This document shows, piece by piece, positions 1-4,983 of a stretch of 4,983 nucleotides of DNA. A program made the position numbers and the translations under genes. This DNA comes from a virus (taxonomy: Duplodnaviria > Heunggongvirae > Uroviricota > Caudoviricetes). Within the stretch, counting starts at the first letter, position 1; every line of letters starts with the position of its first letter. The notes beneath the pieces were generated by a model, which was not told where the DNA came from, did no database searches, and saw only the letters and a program-made list of their open reading frames with translations. Where the stretch lies: the IMG/VR virus record IMGVR_UViG_3300039327_000009, positions 1 to 4,983 of that record; one strand, written 5' to 3'.

Positions 1-93
1 GCAGAAAAAGCTTATTATGCTTCCATCGGAAACGATGATCTGGCAGCCTGAGTTCACAGATAAAACACTCTCCAGGAAACCCGGGGCGGTTCA
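1..93 (+). mobile_element. IS3-family insertion sequence, right-terminal segment (element body lies left of the window); includes the transposase C-terminus at 1..51
   Basis: Positions 1..93 are the exact reverse complement of 4886..4978. The inner end is ...CCCGGGGCGGTTCA (81..93), giving the TG...CA terminus typical of IS3-family elements. Frame +1 from position 1 reads [16 protein letters not shown] then stop (TGA 49..51), a plausible transposase C-terminus. Assignment to an IS629/IS3411-like element is from memory and unverified. Confidence 0.8.
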
Positions 94-664
94 TCAGGTC
101 TTCCGCGTTCATCCCTCCGGTGATGGCATCAAGTTCTTCGATTCCGGTCTTCAGGGTATCGGACTCTTCTCCGTTCCTCAGACGCCTGTCAAGCGTGTCA
201 GTGTAGTCGGTGATGATTTCCCCTAACCGTACAGGTTTAACCTCGTCACGGGGCTTTCTGATGGCTGAGAGACGTTTTACAAGTTCATCCATCGCCTGAC
301 TCGATGCGTCGATGGTTCCGCTTTGGATTGGTTCACGCATTTCATCCATGATTTCCAGCACCAGACGGCGGTGATAGTTATCCGCGACCATTCCGGCATA
401 TCCCTTCAGGTTTGCGGCGCTCGGGCAGTTTTTGCTGGTCATCAGGATTGACGTGAAATGCTCCTCTCCGCACGCCTCGGCAACCATCAGCGCGTCGATT
501 AGGTTTCTGTTTCTCGCCTGCTTCCGGATAACCTCGAAGGCTTTCCGGTAGAGCGGAATTGAAAACGCTTCCGGCTCCAGCGTTGCAAGAACGTCACTGG
601 CGGTTGGAGTTAATCCACCAATCAGCAGGCCACCGATAACGCTCGCTTCGATATCCTGTCTCAT
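94..664 (-). pseudogene. DnaB-family replicative helicase, N-terminal portion only; truncated by IS insertion at 93/94
   Basis: I translated the minus strand by hand from ATG 664..662. The frame is open to the window edge and is not in the ORF track because it has no in-window stop. It reads [20 protein letters not shown]...[33 protein letters not shown]...[17 protein letters not shown], resembling the DnaB N-terminal domain. No Walker A motif follows; past position 94 the frame runs into IS sequence. The ATG overlaps the O stop (ATGA at 661..664), suggesting translational coupling. Confidence 0.8.
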
Positions 665-1608
665 GCAATCCCCCTGTCTGCAAACTTCCCTTCCCGAACT
701 CCCGTTAACGAGTCTTCTCTCAGCAGGTAATCAAAATCAGCCGTCCAGCCCGTGTCGTTGTCTCCGAAGTAAAACGGCTTGGCCTGATGCACAAACGCCC
801 TGACATACGCTCTGAAACCGTCCACGTTTGGCGTTTTCAGTTGCGGGATGATTTTCTTCAGGCGGCGTTTTCGTTTCTCGTTGACCGCAACAGCGTGTGG
901 CAGTCTGTCACCGACTTCGGTGTTGTAGGCGTTCAGGAAGGATTCGTAGTCGATTCGTTCTGCCTTGCGACGTTCAGGTTTAACCTGCCCATCGCCTCCC
1001 CCATTGGGGGGTAGGGGGGTATTATTTATATTCTTGTTAATACCTTCTTGTTCATGATGTGCGGTTGTTTGTGCGGCTTCATGTGCGCTTTCATGTGCGG
1101 CATGTACGCTGAAAGCCGCGCTATTGCTGGCTTCATCATGTGCGGCATCATGTGCGGTTGTTTGTGCGGCTTCATGTGCGGGTAAATTGTCCATTTTTTG
1201 AGCATATTCATGGTAATTTGTGATGGTTATCACACGGCCTTTTTGCTTCTCTCCATCAATGGAGATCATCCCCTCTTTCACAAAAACCTGAAGCATCCGC
1301 TCAACCTGATCACGGCTTGCTGGCTTGCCATGTCTGTCGCATAACTGAAGACCTAAATCAGCTGCTGTCACAACCAGTTGACCGGGTTGCAGATGCCATT
1401 CATGACCTTTGAAATTCGCTTTGTATGGCTTTCTGGCGGCATTCAGGAGAAGGTTTTCCCACAGGGTGCGAAGATAAACATCTTTCGCCCATGACTGTTT
1501 CAGAATGCTCCGGTACAACGGAATGTAACCAGTTTTCTGGTTCTCCATCCTGTTGCTCCTGCGCTCGTGTGCGGCGCTGAAATCGTAGATTTTTGCTGTA
1601 TTGCTCAT
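661..1608 (-). CDS. O: Replication initiation protein, lambda O-like, with ori iterons embedded in the coding sequence
   Basis: 315-aa ORF. The N-terminus [10 protein letters not shown] resembles lambda O (MTNTAKILNF). A central His/Ala-rich low-complexity linker is encoded by the DNA iterons. The position, between cII and the helicase, fits a lambdoid replication module. Confidence 0.8.
1051..1182. repeat. Origin-of-replication iterons (about 9 copies of a CATGTGCGG-like 9-mer, including two ~35-bp direct repeats) inside the O-like gene
   Basis: Near-identical ~35-bp units at 1053..1087 and 1149..1182, plus further (C)ATGTGCG(G/C) copies between them. An AT-rich stretch at 1018..1050 and a C5/G6 palindrome at 1005..1018 lie downstream in the O reading direction, mirroring the lambda ori layout of iterons followed by an AT-rich region. 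Confidence 0.75.
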
Positions 1609-1610
1609 AA

Positions 1611-1883
1611 CTACCTGCCTTGACGAAAGACCTTAAGAACATCGTTAAACTGACTTACGGATATGTCTTCTTTGAGAAGCTTTTCCAGAAATGCGTTTGG
1701 AATGAACGTATATCCCTCCTCTTTTGGTAGAGACGGGAGCAACGCCCTCGCCTCAGCCTTCAGAAGCTCAGTTCTGGCAACTTTCACAAAAGAGATTTGA
1801 GTTCTTTCATCAATGGAACGAAGGAAGCGCAAACGCTTAGCTTCTTTGTGTGTATCAGGTGGATTAAAGCCTTTGTTTCGCAT
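1611..1883 (-). CDS. Hypothetical 90-aa basic protein between cII and O
   Basis: In-frame ATG at 1883..1881 preceded by GAGG (8-nt spacer). It starts 23 nt after the cII stop and ends 2 nt before the O start. The longer 181-aa ORF in the track (1611..2156) overlaps cII in another frame, so the downstream start is preferred. No family recognised. Confidence 0.5.
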   Translation of the reverse strand: MRNKGFNPPDTHKEAKRLRFLRSIDERTQISFVKVARTELLKAEARALLPSLPKEEGYTFIPNAFLEKLLKEDISVSQFNDVLKVFRQGR

Positions 1884-1905
1884 ATAATTACCTCGTTGGA
1901 TGTTG

Positions 1906-2199
1906 TTAAAATTCCATTTGTATTTGATCAGAACGCTCGGTTGCCGCCGGGCGTTTTTTATTGGTGAGAATCGAAGCAACTTGTCGTGCCAATCGAGCCA
2001 TGTCGTCGTCGACAACACCCCATTCAAGAACAGCAAGCAGCATTGAGAACTTTGGAATCCAGTCCCTCTTCCACCTGCTGATCTGCGACTTATCAACGCC
2101 CACAGCTTCCGCTGTCTTCTCAGTTCCAAGCATTGCGATTTTGTTAAGCAACGCACTCTCGATTCTTAGAGCCTCGTTGCGTTTGTTTGCACGAACCAT
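1906..2199 (-). CDS. cII: Transcriptional activator CII (lambda-type)
   Basis: 97-aa product MVRANKRNEALRIESALLNKIAMLGTEKTAEAVGVDKSQISRWKRDWIPKFSMLLAVLEWGVVDDDMARLARQVASILTNKKRPAATERSDQIQMEF, near-identical to lambda CII as I recall it. Start is the internal ATG at 2199 with AAGGAAAT upstream; the 126-aa track ORF is an upstream in-frame extension. Confidence 0.92.
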   Translation of the reverse strand: MVRANKRNEALRIESALLNKIAMLGTEKTAEAVGVDKSQISRWKRDWIPKFSMLLAVLEWGVVDDDMARLARQVASILTNKKRPAATERSDQIQMEF

Positions 2200-2209
2200 A
2201 TGTAAGTAT
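2177..2209 (+). promoter_or_regulatory. PRE-like CII-activated promoter (TTGC-N6-TTGC flanking the -35, putative -10 AAGTAT), directed toward cro and the repressor gene
   Basis: TTGCGTTTGTTTGC at 2177..2190 is the CII recognition repeat. It overlaps the 5' end of cII on the opposite strand, as in lambda. AAGTAT lies at 2204..2209. Confidence 0.7.
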
Positions 2210-2214
2210 TTCCT

Positions 2215-2250
2215 TAACAAATAAGAAGTTATGCGCATCAACTTATGCGC
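2215..2250 (-). terminator. Candidate tR1-like hairpin between nutR and cII
   Basis: On the minus strand, GCGCAT-AAGTTG-ATGCGC (plus 2233..2250) is followed by a U-rich tract AUAACUUCUUAUUUG. The T-run is weak, so this may be a rho-dependent or leaky site. Confidence 0.3.
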
Positions 2251-2255
2251 GTTGT

Positions 2256-2300
2256 ATTCCCGCATTTCGGCGGGAATGAGGACCATGACTGTTAAAGAGC
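2256..2300 (-). promoter_or_regulatory. nutR (boxA GCTCTTTAACA plus boxB hairpin TCCCGC-CGAAAT-GCGGGA)
   Basis: On the minus strand downstream of cro: boxA at plus 2290..2300 and boxB stem-loop at plus 2257..2276. Both are identical to the nutL copy at 3392..3432. Confidence 0.85.
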
Positions 2301-2307
2301 AATTTGC

Positions 2308-2493
2308 TTATGCCGCTTTGCGGTAAGCGCTTTCTTGATACTTCAGGGCGCCAGCTGTAACGACTTCCAGTCGATAGGCGTCTTTCTCTGGGATGACTTC
2401 CTTCCACTGAGAGACTGCTGCGTCGCTAATGCCTAACGCTTTAGCTACAGCACGCTGGGTTCCGAAGTGGTCGATAACATCTTTCTTGTACAT
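2308..2493 (-). CDS. cro: Cro repressor (P22 Cro-like)
   Basis: 61-aa product MYKKDVIDHFGTQRAVAKALGISDAAVSQWKEVIPEKDAYRLEVVTAGALKYQESAYRKAA, with an HTH (QRAVAKALGISDAAVSQW). Divergent from the repressor gene, GGAG SD 7 nt upstream, and a PR promoter immediately upstream. Confidence 0.9.
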   Translation of the reverse strand: MYKKDVIDHFGTQRAVAKALGISDAAVSQWKEVIPEKDAYRLEVVTAGALKYQESAYRKAA

Positions 2494-2507
2494 AGACTCG
2501 CTCCGAA

Positions 2508-2573
2508 ATTAAAGAACACTTAAATTATCCACTAAAGGAATCTTAAGTCAAGTTTATTTAAGATGTCTTAACT
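2508..2573. promoter_or_regulatory. OR operator cluster with PR (minus strand: -35 TTGACT at 2546..2551, 17-bp spacer, -10 ATAATT at 2523..2528) and the PRM region
   Basis: 18-bp operators fitting ANTNAAG-N4-CTTNANT: ATTAAAGAACACTTAAAT (2508..2525) and ATTTAAGATGTCTTAACT (2556..2573), with a weaker site at about 2541..2558. The repressor ATG at 2574 has no SD, so its mRNA is probably leaderless as for lambda PRM. Confidence 0.8.
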
Positions 2574-3224
2574 ATGAAAACTCAATTGATGGGAGAGCGC
2601 ATTCGCGCTCGGAGAAAAGAACTCAAGATCAGGCAGGCCGCACTTGGAAAGATGGTCGGCGTGTCTAATGTTGCCATATCTCAGTGGGAACGCTCTGAGA
2701 CAGAGCCAAATGGAGAGAATCTTCTCGCCCTGGCTAATGCGTTGAAGTGTTCCCCTGACTATCTGATGAAAGGAGAGGAAAGTCTTTCAAACATTGCCTA
2801 TCACAGTAGGCATGATCCAAGAGGGTCATACCCTCTGATTAGCTGGGTGAGCGCAGGATGCTGGATGGAAGCTGTAGAACCATATCATAAGCGTGCAATA
2901 GATAACTGGTACGATACAACCGTAGACTGTTCAGAAGATTCGTTTTGGTTGGACGTGAAGGGAGACTCAATGACGGCTCCGGCCGGTCTCAGTATCCCTG
3001 AAGGAATGATAATACTCGTCGATCCTGAAGTAGAGCCGCGTAACGGGAAACTGGTAGTTGCAAAGCTCGAAGGAGAAAACGAGGCAACTTTCAAGAAGTT
3101 AGTTATTGATGCAGGCAGGAAGTTTCTAAAACCACTTAACCCACAATATCCGATGATCGAGATCAACGGAAACTGCAAAATCATCGGCGTAGTTGTCGAT
3201 GCAAAACTAGCAAACCTTCCATAA
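2574..3224 (+). CDS. cI: Prophage repressor, CI/C2-type (N-terminal HTH, C-terminal LexA-like S24 autopeptidase domain)
   Basis: 216-aa product. HTH at QAALGKMVGVSNVAISQWE; C-terminal domain with GDSM (catalytic Ser) and VVAKLEGENEATFKKL (Lys). As I recall it, the sequence closely matches P22 C2 (MNTQLMGERIRARRK...VVVDAKLANLP). Confidence 0.93.
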   Translation: MKTQLMGERIRARRKELKIRQAALGKMVGVSNVAISQWERSETEPNGENLLALANALKCSPDYLMKGEESLSNIAYHSRHDPRGSYPLISWVSAGCWMEAVEPYHKRAIDNWYDTTVDCSEDSFWLDVKGDSMTAPAGLSIPEGMIILVDPEVEPRNGKLVVAKLEGENEATFKKLVIDAGRKFLKPLNPQYPMIEINGNCKIIGVVVDAKLANLP

Positions 3225-3248
3225 GGGGGCATTCGCCCCTTTTTTTTT
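3225..3248 (+). terminator. Rho-independent terminator immediately after the repressor gene
   Basis: GGGGC-ATTC-GCCCC hairpin (3226..3239) followed by a T9 run (3240..3248). Confidence 0.8.
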
Positions 3249-3272
3249 ATTTCCTTTAAAAATCAAAGCCAA

Positions 3273-3345
3273 ACTTAAGTTACGAAAGAAAATTTAAGTT
3301 TTCTTCAAAAATGCTCTTGACCATTAATTAAAGAGATCTTAAATT
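3273..3345 (+). promoter_or_regulatory. OL operators and PL (-35 TTGACC at 3317..3322, 17-bp spacer, -10 TAAATT at 3340..3345)
   Basis: Operator ATTAAAGAGATCTTAAAT (3327..3344) is near-identical to the OR site at 2508..2525. A second site ATTTAAGTTTTCTTCAAA lies at 3292..3309, and a palindrome AACTTAAGTT at 3272..3281. Confidence 0.75.
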
Positions 3346-3391
3346 TAAGCCATCAGCAGGACGCTGGAAGCCAAACGGAACAGATTGGCAG

Positions 3392-3432
3392 GCTCTTTAA
3401 CATTGATGGGATTGTCCCGCCGAAATGCGGGA
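3392..3432 (+). promoter_or_regulatory. nutL (boxA GCTCTTTAACA at 3392..3402; boxB hairpin TCCCGC-CGAAAT-GCGGGA at 3415..3432)
   Basis: Identical boxA and boxB to nutR, with matching spacing (12 vs 13 nt), about 45 nt downstream of the predicted PL start. Confidence 0.85.
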
Positions 3433-3745
3433 ACCAAAGAGTAGTTGGCTTTGGGGTGACGTGAAGTGCAGCTGCACGACGGCAACCGGAAGATAAGCAC
3501 CCGGCGCGTCACCGCCAAAGTCAATTCCATAGGCGTTATGCAGCCGCCACCATATTCAAGAAAGCTGCACAAGAGGTAGGAGGATTTATGTGAATGCATA
3601 ACTTCAAAACCGAGGTTAATTAAATCTCTCGATCCGAGCATCGACCTATTAGGTGGCGAGATGCTCTTTCTGCCCCTCAGTTCGAGGGGCCAGAAACCAC
3701 TTTGCAATCACTATCAATTCCAAAGTTGTTTCATCGGAGGTCAAC

Positions 3746-4045
3746 ATGACAGTAGTCATTACATATCTGGCTGACGATAACGCCAGAAATCGCCGCAGAG
3801 CACGCAGACAGGCTCAACGTGAACAGGCGATGCAAGAACAGCGACTGGCGCGAAAAATTGCGCTAAAGCTCTCTGGTTGCGTCAGAGCGGATAAAGCAGC
3901 ATCACTCGGAATCCTTCGCTGCAAGAAGGCAGATGAAGTCGAGAGTAAACAGAATCGTATTTACTACCGCAAGCCACGCAGTGAAATGGGTGTGACTTGT
4001 GTTGGTCGCCAGAAAATGAAATTAGGCAGCAAACCACTTATTTGA
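3746..4045 (+). CDS. N: N-family transcription antiterminator
   Basis: 99-aa product. N-terminal arginine-rich motif (NARNRRRARRQAQREQ); C-terminus YYRKPRSEMGVTCVGRQKMKLGSKPLI resembles the lambda and phage 21 N C-termini. GGAGG SD at 3736..3740. Positioned downstream of PL and nutL. The track ORF from 3653 is an upstream extension lacking an SD. Confidence 0.85.
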   Translation: MTVVITYLADDNARNRRRARRQAQREQAMQEQRLARKIALKLSGCVRADKAASLGILRCKKADEVESKQNRIYYRKPRSEMGVTCVGRQKMKLGSKPLI

Positions 4046-4053
4046 GGTGATAT

Positions 4054-4524
4054 ATGACAAAATCATGGAGCGTACCTTTTCCTGAATCAGAAACTGAACA
4101 TGATGGAATGCCTGTTTTCTGGAGATTCCAAGCGACAGTTGAAGAAGATGGAATCAAAATATTCGCACTTCAATATATAGCTTTTCATCAGACAGAGCAT
4201 TATGCATGGTTGGTTCCTGCGCATTGGATTGTTAATTTTAAACCAGCACCAAATCAGTGGTTACAGGAATGGAAACAAAGGAGAAATAGATATGCAATTA
4301 AGAAAGTAGCAAAAAATGCAGAAAGATCTTTTGCATTCCCGACGAAGAAACTTGCCATTGAAAGTTTATTGCGCCGGAAGAAATACCATTTGATGAGAAT
4401 CAAACAAGATTTGGCTGTTGTATCAACTCTTGTTGATGGGATGAAGAATATTGATACATCAACACCAGGTATTGAATATAACTTTGGACACAACCAAGAA
4501 ACAGAAAACTGGGTGTTTTATTAG
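4054..4524 (+). CDS. Hypothetical protein (156 aa), AT-rich accessory (moron-like) gene downstream of N
   Basis: ATG at 4054 with GAGGTGA SD overlapping the N stop. Visibly lower GC than neighbouring genes (by eye, not computed). Trp/aromatic-rich N-terminal half, basic C-terminal half, no obvious transmembrane segment or catalytic motif. No family recognised. Confidence 0.6.
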   Translation: MTKSWSVPFPESETEHDGMPVFWRFQATVEEDGIKIFALQYIAFHQTEHYAWLVPAHWIVNFKPAPNQWLQEWKQRRNRYAIKKVAKNAERSFAFPTKKLAIESLLRRKKYHLMRIKQDLAVVSTLVDGMKNIDTSTPGIEYNFGHNQETENWVFY

Positions 4525-4628
4525 TACGAATAAGCACTGTGTATTCATTCCAACGAGTGAATACACGGAGCAATGTCGCTCGTAACTAAACAGGAGCCGA
4601 CTTGTTCTGATTATTGGAAATCTTCTTT

Positions 4629-4653
4629 GCCCTCCAGTGTGAGGGCTTTTTTA
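4629..4653 (+). terminator. Rho-independent terminator (tL1-like) after the 156-aa gene
   Basis: GCCCTC-CAGTGT-GAGGGC hairpin (4629..4646) followed by TTTTTTAT. Confidence 0.65.
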
Positions 4654-4718
4654 TATGCATACCAATAACGCTTCACTCGAGGCGTTTTCGTTATGCAATC
4701 AAACAGAAGGAGCATCCT

Positions 4719-4885
4719 ATGCAACAGTTCGCTATTGCAGGGGCGGCATCGGTTCGCCCTTTCAACCCGATTTTATCGGTACAGCATTCACGAAAAAACA
4801 TTTTAACCGGAGCAGACTTTAAACAACCAAGAATGAAAAGCTTGCTCGAAAAGCTTTGGGATATTTTGAAACAACAAGGCCGTCC
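4719..4885 (+). pseudogene. Small hypothetical gene truncated by IS insertion after codon 55 (frame continues into IS sequence to the stop at 4925)
   Basis: Strong SD AAGGAG at 4707..4712 with a 6-nt spacer to ATG 4719. Product begins MQQFAIAGAASVRPFNPILSVQHSRKNILTGADFKQPRMKSLLEKLWDILKQQGRPE. The IS terminus begins at 4886, so the last ~13 residues are IS-derived. The track start at 4614 lies upstream of the terminator and is unlikely. Confidence 0.45.
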
Positions 4886-4983
4886 TGAACCGCCCCGGGT
4901 TTCCTGGAGAGTGTTTTATCTGTGAACTCAGGCTGCCAGATCATCGTTTCCGATGGAAGCATAATAAGCTTTTTCTGCTTCTG
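4886..4983 (-). mobile_element. IS3-family insertion sequence, right-terminal segment in inverted orientation (element body lies right of the window); transposase C-terminus on the minus strand at 4928..4983
   Basis: TGAACCGCCCCGGG... begins at 4886. Positions 4886..4978 are a perfect reverse complement of 1..93, and 4979..4983 continue as further IS sequence. Confidence 0.8.

What the first reader, a model, noticed from the sequence alone, without database searches (positions are those of the whole stretch)
1..4983. Entire immunity-replication segment is bracketed by inverted copies of an IS3-family terminus that truncate genes at both junctions
Positions 1..93 and 4886..4978 are a perfect 93-bp inverted repeat, each ending in the IS3-type ...GGTTCA / TGAACC... 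terminus with the transposase C-terminus pointing inward. The left junction (93/94) cuts a DnaB-like helicase after its N-terminal domain; the right junction (4885/4886) cuts a small gene. This is either a composite-transposon-like unit carrying a complete repressor-operator-N module, or the footprint of an IS-mediated inversion or deletion within a prophage. Either could mobilise or fix a phage immunity cassette.
Basis: seen in the sequence. Interest (0 to 1): 0.75.

Follow-up and report, generated by a model that had tools for sequence, protein, structure and literature searches.

The report
IS629 copies bracket decayed prophage remnant
The window is the immunity and replication region of a CUS-3-like E. 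coli prophage flanked by the inner ends of two identical, inverted IS629 copies: one is a plain insertion and the other borders a 20.7-kb deletion that disabled the phage, which is an ordinary, well-known kind of prophage decay.

Summary
Positions 1-93 and 4886-4978 are a perfect inverted repeat, and they are the right (IRR) ends of two full 1310-bp IS629 copies. The window is 100% identical to a stretch of a complete E. coli chromosome (OZ040079.1) and to short-read gut-metagenome contigs that break inside the same IS. It is therefore probably a whole short-read contig that ends in a collapsed repeat.

The interior (95-4885) is identical to an intact CUS-3-like, P22-like prophage at argW/dsdC.

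- **Right copy:** a simple insertion with a perfect 3-bp duplication (TCC). It does not truncate the small gene, a cIII homologue. It removes only the stop codon and adds 12 codons.
- **Left copy:** no target duplication (TAC vs TCA). It sits at a 20,720-bp deletion running from the gp16-like injection gene to codon 190 of the DnaB-like helicase. The deletion removes the nin, Q, lysis and head genes.
- **Rejected readings:** the flanks, gene order and orientation rule out composite transposition and a fixed inversion.

The result is a grounded prophage that keeps an intact repressor, operator and N module. This kind of event is already known, and interest is low.

The parts
1..93 (+). Right end (IRR side) of IS629 copy A. 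The last 16 codons plus stop of transposase orfB are at 1-51, and the terminus ...GGGGCGGTTCA ends at 93.
   Evidence: Identical to L003 5283-5375, the end of a full 1310-bp element at L003 4066-5375. That element is 99.5% identical over 1310/1310 nt to elements annotated 'IS3 family IS629'.
94..94 (.). Orphan T between the IS629 end and the point where helicase homology begins. The intact prophage has C here.
   Evidence: This is the only mismatch to the intact prophage on the left side. All phage relatives also start matching at 95. The T is present in the chromosome and in two independent metagenome contigs. It may be the first base of an original TAC duplication (inference).
95..664 (-). 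5' fragment (codons 1-190 of 458) of the phage DnaB-like replicative helicase. The ATPase domain is lost.
   Evidence: Pfam finds only the DnaB N-terminal domain, E 8e-14. The intact gene is 1377 nt. Homology ends at intact-prophage coordinate 35393.
661..1548 (-). Replication initiator O, with internal 12-nt repeats at about 1048-1193 (probable ori iterons).
   Evidence: Pfam Phage_rep_O, E 7e-15. Repeats seen.
1611..1883 (-). 90-aa conserved phage protein of unknown function.
   Evidence: phrog_2519, E 2e-57.
1906..2199 (-). cII.
   Evidence: Pfam Phage_CII, E 5e-48.
2257..2300 (-). nutR-like site: boxA (GCTCTTTAACA) plus a boxB hairpin.
   Evidence: Inverted repeats I3 and I6 with 3392-3433. 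Hairpin predicted. The nut assignment rests on established knowledge of lambdoid boxA/boxB.
2308..2493 (-). cro.
   Evidence: Pfam P22_Cro, E 9e-28.
2494..2573 (.). Divergent OR/pR/pRM control region.
   Evidence: Promoter-like site on the minus strand at 2551-2524. Operator-like repeats D5, I4 and I15.
2574..3224 (+). cI/C2-type repressor, followed by an intrinsic terminator at 3223-3242.
   Evidence: Pfam HTH_3 plus Peptidase_S24. Terminator. The sequence is identical to the intact prophage.
3290..3433 (+). OL/pL region and nutL (boxA at 3392, boxB at 3415-3433).
   Evidence: Promoter-like site at 3317-3345. Repeats I7, I3 and I6. Fold.
3746..4045 (+). N-like antiterminator.
   Evidence: phrog_271 'anti-termination protein N-like', E 3e-36. 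Weak Pfam N_peptide hit below the curated cutoff.
4054..4524 (+). 156-aa conserved phage protein of unknown function.
   Evidence: phrog_1636, E 1e-111.
4719..4925 (+). cIII-like gene. All 56 native codons are intact, but the stop codon is replaced and 12 codons are read from the IS629 end.
   Evidence: phrog_550, E 8e-23, over residues 1-56. Junction comparison with the intact prophage.
4883..4885 (.). Inner copy of the 3-bp target-site duplication (TCC) of IS629 copy B.
   Evidence: L003 flanks read ...GTCC|IS|TCCATGAG, while the intact target is GTCCATGAG.
4886..4983 (-). Right end (IRR side) of IS629 copy B, inverted relative to copy A.
   Evidence: Identical to L003 10168-10265, the end of a full 1310-bp element at L003 10168-11477 that is 1310/1310 identical to copy A.

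Best explanation
The window is the early (immunity and replication) region of a CUS-3-like, P22-like prophage integrated at argW next to dsdC in E. coli. It has been hit by two separate events involving IS629, a 1310-bp IS3-family element. Copy B, on the right, is a plain insertion with a 3-bp duplication (TCC) in the last codon of the cIII-like gene, and the prophage continues undisturbed beyond it (shown). Copy A, on the left, marks a 20,720-bp deletion that joins the gp16-like injection gene to codon 190 of the helicase. The deletion removes the helicase ATPase domain and the nin, Q, lysis, terminase, portal, capsid and most injection genes (shown). The way the deletion arose is inferred. 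Most likely copy A first inserted into gp16, duplicating TAC, and an IS-adjacent deletion then removed everything from the second base of its right-hand TAC up to the helicase. That would leave the orphan T at position 94. The alternative is recombination between two directly oriented IS629 copies. The outcome is a grounded prophage that cannot replicate, lyse or package but keeps an unaltered cI, cro, cII, N, nutL/nutR and operator module, so it probably still confers immunity (inferred). The symmetric appearance of the IS ends at the window edges is most likely because the window is a short-read contig that stops where the assembler met the repeat.
For: The window is 100% identical over 4983 nt to L003 5283-10265 of the complete chromosome OZ040079.1, and to metagenome contigs L004 (k127, IS arms 126/125 nt) and L005 (k119, arms 118/117 nt). 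L003 holds three full 1310-bp IS copies. A and B are identical, and C differs by 1 nt. Their flanks are A TAC|IS|TCA, B TCC|IS|TCC and C GTT|IS|GTT. The IS is 99.5% identical over its full length to annotated IS629. IS629 is reported to make 3-4 bp duplications (PMC3271280). Window 95-4885 has no difference from the intact prophage of ATCC 11775. Alignment of L003 to the intact prophage, all on the same strand and in the same order, shows a single gap of 20,720 bp at copy A and exact continuity with 3-bp overlaps at copies B and C. The gene content of the deleted segment comes from the annotation. Independent IS629-bounded deletions of the same prophage occur in other strains (L001, L006). Proteins were identified.
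Against: The order of events at the left junction rests on a single base (T at 94), which would match the proposed TAC flank by chance one time in four. No precursor genome with IS629 flanked by TAC/TAC in gp16 was found among 5426 complete RefSeq E. coli genomes. Retained immunity is inferred from sequence identity only. That the window is a whole short-read contig is inferred from sister contigs, and its arms (93 and 98 nt) are not symmetric.
Confidence: 0.9

Rival explanations
1. The two inverted IS629 copies and the 4.8-kb cargo form a composite transposon that moved, or can move, the immunity cassette as one unit.
For: Two 100% identical IS copies bracket the segment, so the geometry alone resembles a composite transposon.
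Against: The outer flanks differ (TAC on the left, TCC on the right), whereas copy B alone has a perfect TCC/TCC duplication. The cargo is collinear with the prophage sequence beyond copy B and sits in its native place and orientation. With this geometry the outer ends are both IRL. From general knowledge, IS3-family transposition proceeds through an IRR-IRL circle junction, which this pair cannot form. No copy of the unit was seen elsewhere.
Confidence: 0.02
2. The arrangement is the product of homologous recombination between the inverted IS629 copies, so the segment is inverted or flips between two orientations in the population.
For: Two identical 1310-bp inverted repeats 4.8 kb apart are a good RecA substrate. 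The window itself would look the same in either orientation, because both inner ends are IRR.
Against: In the complete chromosome the segment has the same orientation as in the intact prophage (all alignments plus/plus and in order). Copy B's inner and outer flanks form a direct TCC/TCC pair, which an inversion would have separated. A second large assembly carrying the same junction protein has mostly the same neighbouring genes.
Confidence: 0.04
3. The left junction arose by RecA recombination between two directly oriented IS629 copies, one inserted in gp16 and one in the helicase, rather than by an IS-adjacent deletion from a single copy.
For: Mismatched flanks (TAC vs TCA) are what a hybrid IS left by such a recombination would show. 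The lineage carries many identical IS629 copies, and related strains show about 30 matching places per genome.
Against: A helicase-resident copy should be followed by native helicase sequence (CCA...), but the base next to the IS is T in the window and C in the intact prophage, and every phage-database hit likewise starts matching only at 95. This model therefore needs an extra point mutation exactly at the junction. No genome with an IS629 at this helicase site was found.
Confidence: 0.25
4. The bracketing repeat is an assembly or construction artefact and no such locus exists.
For: The IS ends sit almost symmetrically at both window edges, as in contigs that stop at repeats.
Against: The same 4983 nt occur inside a 4.88-Mb complete chromosome with full IS copies on both sides. 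The junction-specific 68-aa fusion protein is on record on at least 10 contigs from several sources.
Confidence: 0.02

Closest known systems
IS629 (iso-forms IS1203 and IS3411), IS3 family, of E. coli and Shigella
   Same: The length is 1310 bp and identity to annotated IS629 in Stx phages is 99.5%. It has orfA (HTH_Tnp_1) and orfB (rve) with an annotated programmed frameshift and ALIL pseudoknot. The termini are TG...CA, and two of three copies have 3-bp duplications.
   Different: Nothing essential differs. This variant is 100% identical to the copy in GenBank AF017626 (phage 21 int region) and differs by about 0.5% from the O157 copies.
IS629 insertions and IS-mediated deletions in lambdoid prophages of E. 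coli O157:H7
   Same: The same IS inserts into prophage genes and borders deletions that inactivate prophages and diversify close strains (PMC3271280, read; the work it cites as its reference 7 was not read here).
   Different: The host here is an E. coli carrying a CUS-3-like prophage at argW/dsdC, not an Stx phage of O157. This particular 20.7-kb deletion and the cIII insertion were not found in any of 5426 complete RefSeq genomes.
Phage CUS-3 (P22-like phage of E. coli RS218, GenBank CP000711)
   Same: The early region is 98.3% identical over 83% of the interior. The intact relative sits between the tRNA-Arg gene/intS and dsdC and carries a tailspike and an acyltransferase gene.
   Different: The copy in the window's strain is a remnant that lacks 20.7 kb of nin, late and morphogenesis genes and carries three IS629 copies.
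Composite transposons bounded by inverted IS copies (Tn10/Tn5 type)
   Same: Two identical inverted IS copies bracket a few kilobases of cargo.
   Different: There is no shared duplication outside the pair. The cargo is in its native context, and one IS has its own duplication. Nothing indicates that the unit has ever moved.

Membership tests
IS3 family / IS629 | Two consecutive overlapping ORFs: orfA with an HTH, orfB with a DDE (rve) catalytic domain, joined by a -1 frameshift. | tested here: met
   In L003, orfA is 108 aa (PF01527) and orfB is 295 aa (PF00665 rve, PF13276). RefSeq annotates 'programmed frameshift' and the ALIL pseudoknot on identical copies. The frameshift itself was not tested.
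IS3 family / IS629 | Imperfect terminal inverted repeats ending 5'-TG...CA-3'. | tested here: met
   IRL is TGAACCGCCCCGGGAATCCTGGAGA and IRR is TGAACCGCCCCGGGTTTCCTGGAGA (reverse complement of the right end), 23 of the first 25 nt identical.
IS3 family / IS629 | 3-4 bp target-site duplication on simple insertion. | tested here: met
   Copy B has TCC/TCC and copy C has GTT/GTT. Copy A lacks one because it borders a deletion. The literature value comes from PMC3271280.
IS3 family / IS629 | Near-identity to the reference IS629 over its full 1310 bp. | tested here: met
   99.5% over 1310/1310 nt to features annotated 'insertion sequence: IS3 family IS629' (H57, H67). ISfinder itself was not available.
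Composite transposon | One target-site duplication flanking the whole IS-cargo-IS unit. | tested here: not met
   The outer flanks are TAC (left of A) and TCC (right of B).
Composite transposon | Cargo foreign to the insertion context. | tested here: not met
   The cargo and the DNA beyond copy B are contiguous in the intact prophage, separated only by the 3-bp duplication.
IS-mediated inversion | Segment reversed relative to the ancestral order, with the duplications of the two IS copies exchanged as reverse complements. | tested here: not met
   All blocks align plus/plus and in order to the intact prophage. Copy B keeps a direct TCC/TCC pair.
IS-associated deletion | A single IS copy joins two sequences that are distant in the ancestor, in the same orientation, without a target-site duplication. 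| tested here: met
   gp16 (intact_rc 14672) is joined to the helicase (35393) across copy A, 20,720 bp are missing, and the flanks are TAC vs TCA.
Lambdoid immunity region (cI-OR-cro, pL-nutL-N, cII, cIII, O-P) | Divergent repressor and cro genes with repeated operators, N with nut sites on both early transcripts, and cII, cIII and replication genes in canonical order. | tested here: met
   Pfam and PHROG assignments. Promoter-like sites and terminators. boxA/boxB inverted copies. Function was not tested.

The most novel reading that the evidence does not exclude
IS629 may decay this prophage in a non-random way. Three strains carry different IS629-bounded deletions that all start in the gp16-like injection gene. 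Two of these endpoints lie only 4 nt apart, with the IS in opposite orientations, next to a CGGTTC motif that resembles the IS629 terminus. All three deletions remove late genes but spare the cI immunity module and the immI/Clp/YafO region. This could reflect an IR-like insertion hot spot combined with selection to keep superinfection immunity while losing the lethal lytic functions. In addition, the identical inverted IS pair could let the immunity cassette flip in a subpopulation.
Probability: 0.12. Interest if true: 0.35.

Novelty: already known. Interest (0 to 1): 0.1.

Why it matters
It matters little beyond bookkeeping. It shows how a K1-associated CUS-3-like prophage becomes locked in the chromosome by IS629 while keeping its repressor. 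That may preserve immunity to related phages and any lysogenic-conversion genes outside the deletion. It is also a practical reminder that perfect inverted repeats at both ends of a short contig usually mean the assembler stopped at an IS, and that only the outer flanks can tell insertion, deletion, inversion and composite transposition apart.

Tried and rejected
- **Spurious extension of the prophage match:** BLAST extended the intact-prophage match 3 nt into each IS end (91-4888), which looked like overlap or duplication. Base-level alignment showed this cost one mismatch (position 94) and one gap (4885/4886), so the true homology is 95-4885.
- **Same junctions in complete genomes:** None of the complete RefSeq E. 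coli genomes has them. The one hit with 100% coverage (H1) is five joined pieces with IS629 at other sites.
- **Rfam at gathering thresholds on the window:** no matches.
- **Full-text search for the IS629 terminal sequence:** no paper found.
- **Microhomology at the deletion endpoints:** none convincing. The deleted DNA starts CGGTTCC... and ends ...ATTATCAC.
- **First Pfam call:** it failed because my helicase coordinates were one base off, and I reran it with 95-664.
- **Rejected readings:** composite transposition, fixed inversion and assembly artefact were considered and rejected, as set out under the rival explanations.
Full report
**Observation.** The window ends are a perfect inverted repeat. 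The repeat finder gives arms 1-93 and 4886-4978, 93 nt, 100% complementary, and a script confirmed exact identity. The IS-like sequence continues to 4983 on the right, so the 93-nt length is set by the left window edge and not by biology. Frame 1 of 1-51 reads the last 16 codons and the stop of a transposase, pointing inward.

**What the repeat is.** I looked up the ORF that crosses the right junction (68 aa, 4719-4925) by exact sequence. It is on record on at least 10 contigs, including a complete 4.88-Mb chromosome (OZ040079.1, locus L003) and short-read gut-metagenome contigs (L004, L005). The window is 100% identical over all 4983 nt to L003 5283-10265, to L004 and to L005.

In L003 the two arms are the ends of full 1310-bp elements: copy A at 4066-5375 on the plus strand and copy B at 10168-11477 on the minus strand. 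They are identical at all 1310 positions. A third copy, C, at 15063-16372 differs by one base. Each has orfA (HTH_Tnp_1) and orfB (rve) and termini TGAACCGCCCCGGG...CCCGGGGCGGTTCA. RefSeq annotates identical copies as IS3-family with a programmed frameshift and ALIL pseudoknot. The element is 99.5% identical over its full length to features annotated 'IS3 family IS629' in Stx phages. It is IS629.

**Why the IS ends sit at the window edges.** The sister contigs are named k127 and k119, and they carry IS arms of 126/125 and 118/117 nt, which is k-1 and k-2. That is the signature of a de Bruijn assembler stopping at a repeat. The window (arms 93 and 98 nt) is most likely another contig of this kind. 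This is an inference. The junctions themselves are real, because they occur inside a complete chromosome.

**The interior.** The interior is the early region of a P22-like lambdoid prophage. On the minus strand, in window order, lie:

- the helicase fragment (95-664, DnaB N-terminal domain only)
- O (661-1548)
- a 90-aa protein of unknown function
- cII
- cro

On the plus strand lie:

- the cI/C2 repressor (2574-3224, HTH_3 plus Peptidase_S24)
- an N-like antiterminator (3746-4045)
- a 156-aa protein of unknown function
- a cIII-like gene (4719 onward)

Promoter-like sites for pR and pL, terminators, and inverted boxA/boxB (nutR and nutL) copies lie where expected. The closest phages are Gally, CUS-3 and JEP4, at 98-99% identity over 80-84% of the interior. 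About 100 complete E. coli genomes carry the region. In many of them, for example ATCC 11775 and S88, the interior is uninterrupted.

**Comparison with the intact prophage.** The intact prophage of ATCC 11775 lies between the tRNA-Arg gene/intS and dsdC. Base by base, window 95-4885 is identical to it, and the only differences are at the two junctions.

- **Right junction.** The intact sequence is ...GGCCGTCCATGAGTTT, and L003 reads ...GGCCGTCC|IS629|TCCATGAGTTT. This is a perfect 3-bp duplication (TCC), with the prophage continuing normally into erf. It matches the 3-4 bp duplications reported for IS629 (PMC3271280). The insertion lies in the last sense codon of the cIII-like gene (CCA to CCT, still Pro). 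It removes the TGA and appends [12 protein letters not shown], so the gene is extended (56 to 68 aa) and not truncated.
- **Left junction.** The flanks of copy A are TAC and TCA, so there is no duplication. Beyond copy A lies the gp16-like injection gene, not the rest of the helicase.
- **The deletion.** Aligning L003 to the intact prophage gives four blocks, all in the same order and on the same strand. There is a single gap of 20,720 bp at copy A and exact 3-bp overlaps at copies B and C.
- **What was lost.** The missing DNA covers the helicase from codon 191 onward, two small genes, ninB through ninH, Q, holin, endolysin and Rz, terminase, portal, scaffold, capsid, head-completion genes and injection genes.

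| Reading | Prediction | Result |
|---|---|---|
| Composite transposition | One duplication outside the pair, and cargo foreign to its context | Neither holds: outer flanks are TAC vs TCC, the cargo is collinear with the flank, and copy B has its own duplication |
| Inversion | Reversed order and exchanged, reverse-complemented duplications | Neither holds |
| IS-associated deletion | A single IS joining two distant same-strand sequences without a duplication | Holds at copy A |

The locus therefore records two independent IS629 events, one insertion and one deletion. A third insertion (copy C) lies outside the window.

**How the deletion arose.** This part is inferred. The base at 94 is T, while the intact prophage has C there. 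Every hit in the phage search likewise starts matching only at 95. The T appears in three independent assemblies, so it is not a sequencing error.

If copy A first inserted into gp16 and duplicated TAC, its original right flank began with T. A deletion running from the next base to the helicase would then leave exactly IS|T|CAGGTC. If the deletion instead arose by recombination with a second copy resident in the helicase, the flank should read CCA, and an extra mutation at the junction must be assumed. I therefore favour insertion in gp16 followed by an IS-adjacent deletion. This preference rests on one base, which would match by chance one time in four. I found no precursor genome and no convincing microhomology.

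**Consequence.** This is also inferred. The prophage can no longer replicate, lyse or assemble particles. Its repressor, operators, cro, cII, N and nut sites are unchanged, so it should still confer immunity. Nothing supports the 'mobilise' half.

**Context.** Other strains with many IS629 copies show different IS629-bounded deletions in the same prophage. In L001 gp16 is joined to Q, and in L006 gp16 is joined to the helicase at another codon. The gp16 endpoint in L006 lies only 4 nt from that of L003, with the IS in the opposite orientation. This fits the known picture of IS629-driven prophage decay described for O157 (PMC3271280), seen here in a CUS-3-like prophage.

**Verdict.** The phenomenon is already known, and interest is low.

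Noticed in passing
window 2257-2300 and 3392-3433: A roughly 44-nt inverted repeat brackets the cro-cI region: a 19-nt perfect core (TCCCGCCGAAATGCGGGAA) plus an 18-nt arm containing GCTCTTTAACA. These look like boxA plus boxB hairpin of nutR and nutL on the divergent pR and pL transcripts.
   Followed up: partly
window 1048-1193: Arrays of a 12-nt unit (CATGTGCGG-type, 2.7 and 4 copies) lie inside the O gene's linker region, which encodes a repetitive AAHE/AAQTT stretch. They are probably the ori iterons.
   Followed up: partly
window 1930-1957 (+): A strong intrinsic-terminator-like hairpin with a T run lies on the strand antisense to the 3' end of cII. This is the position expected for an OOP-like antisense RNA. 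Rfam gave no hit.
   Followed up: no
window 94: A single orphan T lies between the IS629 end and the first helicase base. It matches neither the IS nor the intact prophage, which has C. It is present in three independent assemblies.
   Followed up: partly
L003 4065/4066, L006 6000/6001, L001 2054/2055: Three strains carry different IS629-bounded deletions, all with one endpoint in the gp16-like injection gene. The L003 and L006 endpoints are 4 nt apart with the IS in opposite orientations, next to CGGTTCC, which resembles the IS629 terminus CGGTTCA. This may be an insertion hot spot.
   Followed up: partly
L003 5215-5946 (window 95-664 and beyond the left edge): The truncated helicase ORF reads on through the junction into the antisense strand of IS629. 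It is called as a 243-aa product: 190 native residues plus 53 IS-derived residues.
   Followed up: no
L003 15063-16372: A third IS629 copy, 1 nt different from copies A and B and with duplication GTT, lies in the same prophage remnant next to the ASCH-domain gene. The remnant therefore holds three copies within 12.3 kb.
   Followed up: yes
window 2507-2570 and 3288-3346: Repeated AAGAnnnCTTAAAT-type motifs (families D5, I4, I7, I15) surround the promoter-like sites for pR and pL. They are presumably the OR and OL operators of this immunity type.
   Followed up: no
GenBank AF017626.1 (hit H56): The IS629 variant here is 100% identical over 1310 nt to a copy interrupting the int region in a record for phage 21 from E. 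coli EC38. It is closer to that copy than to the O157 copies (99.5%).
   Followed up: no
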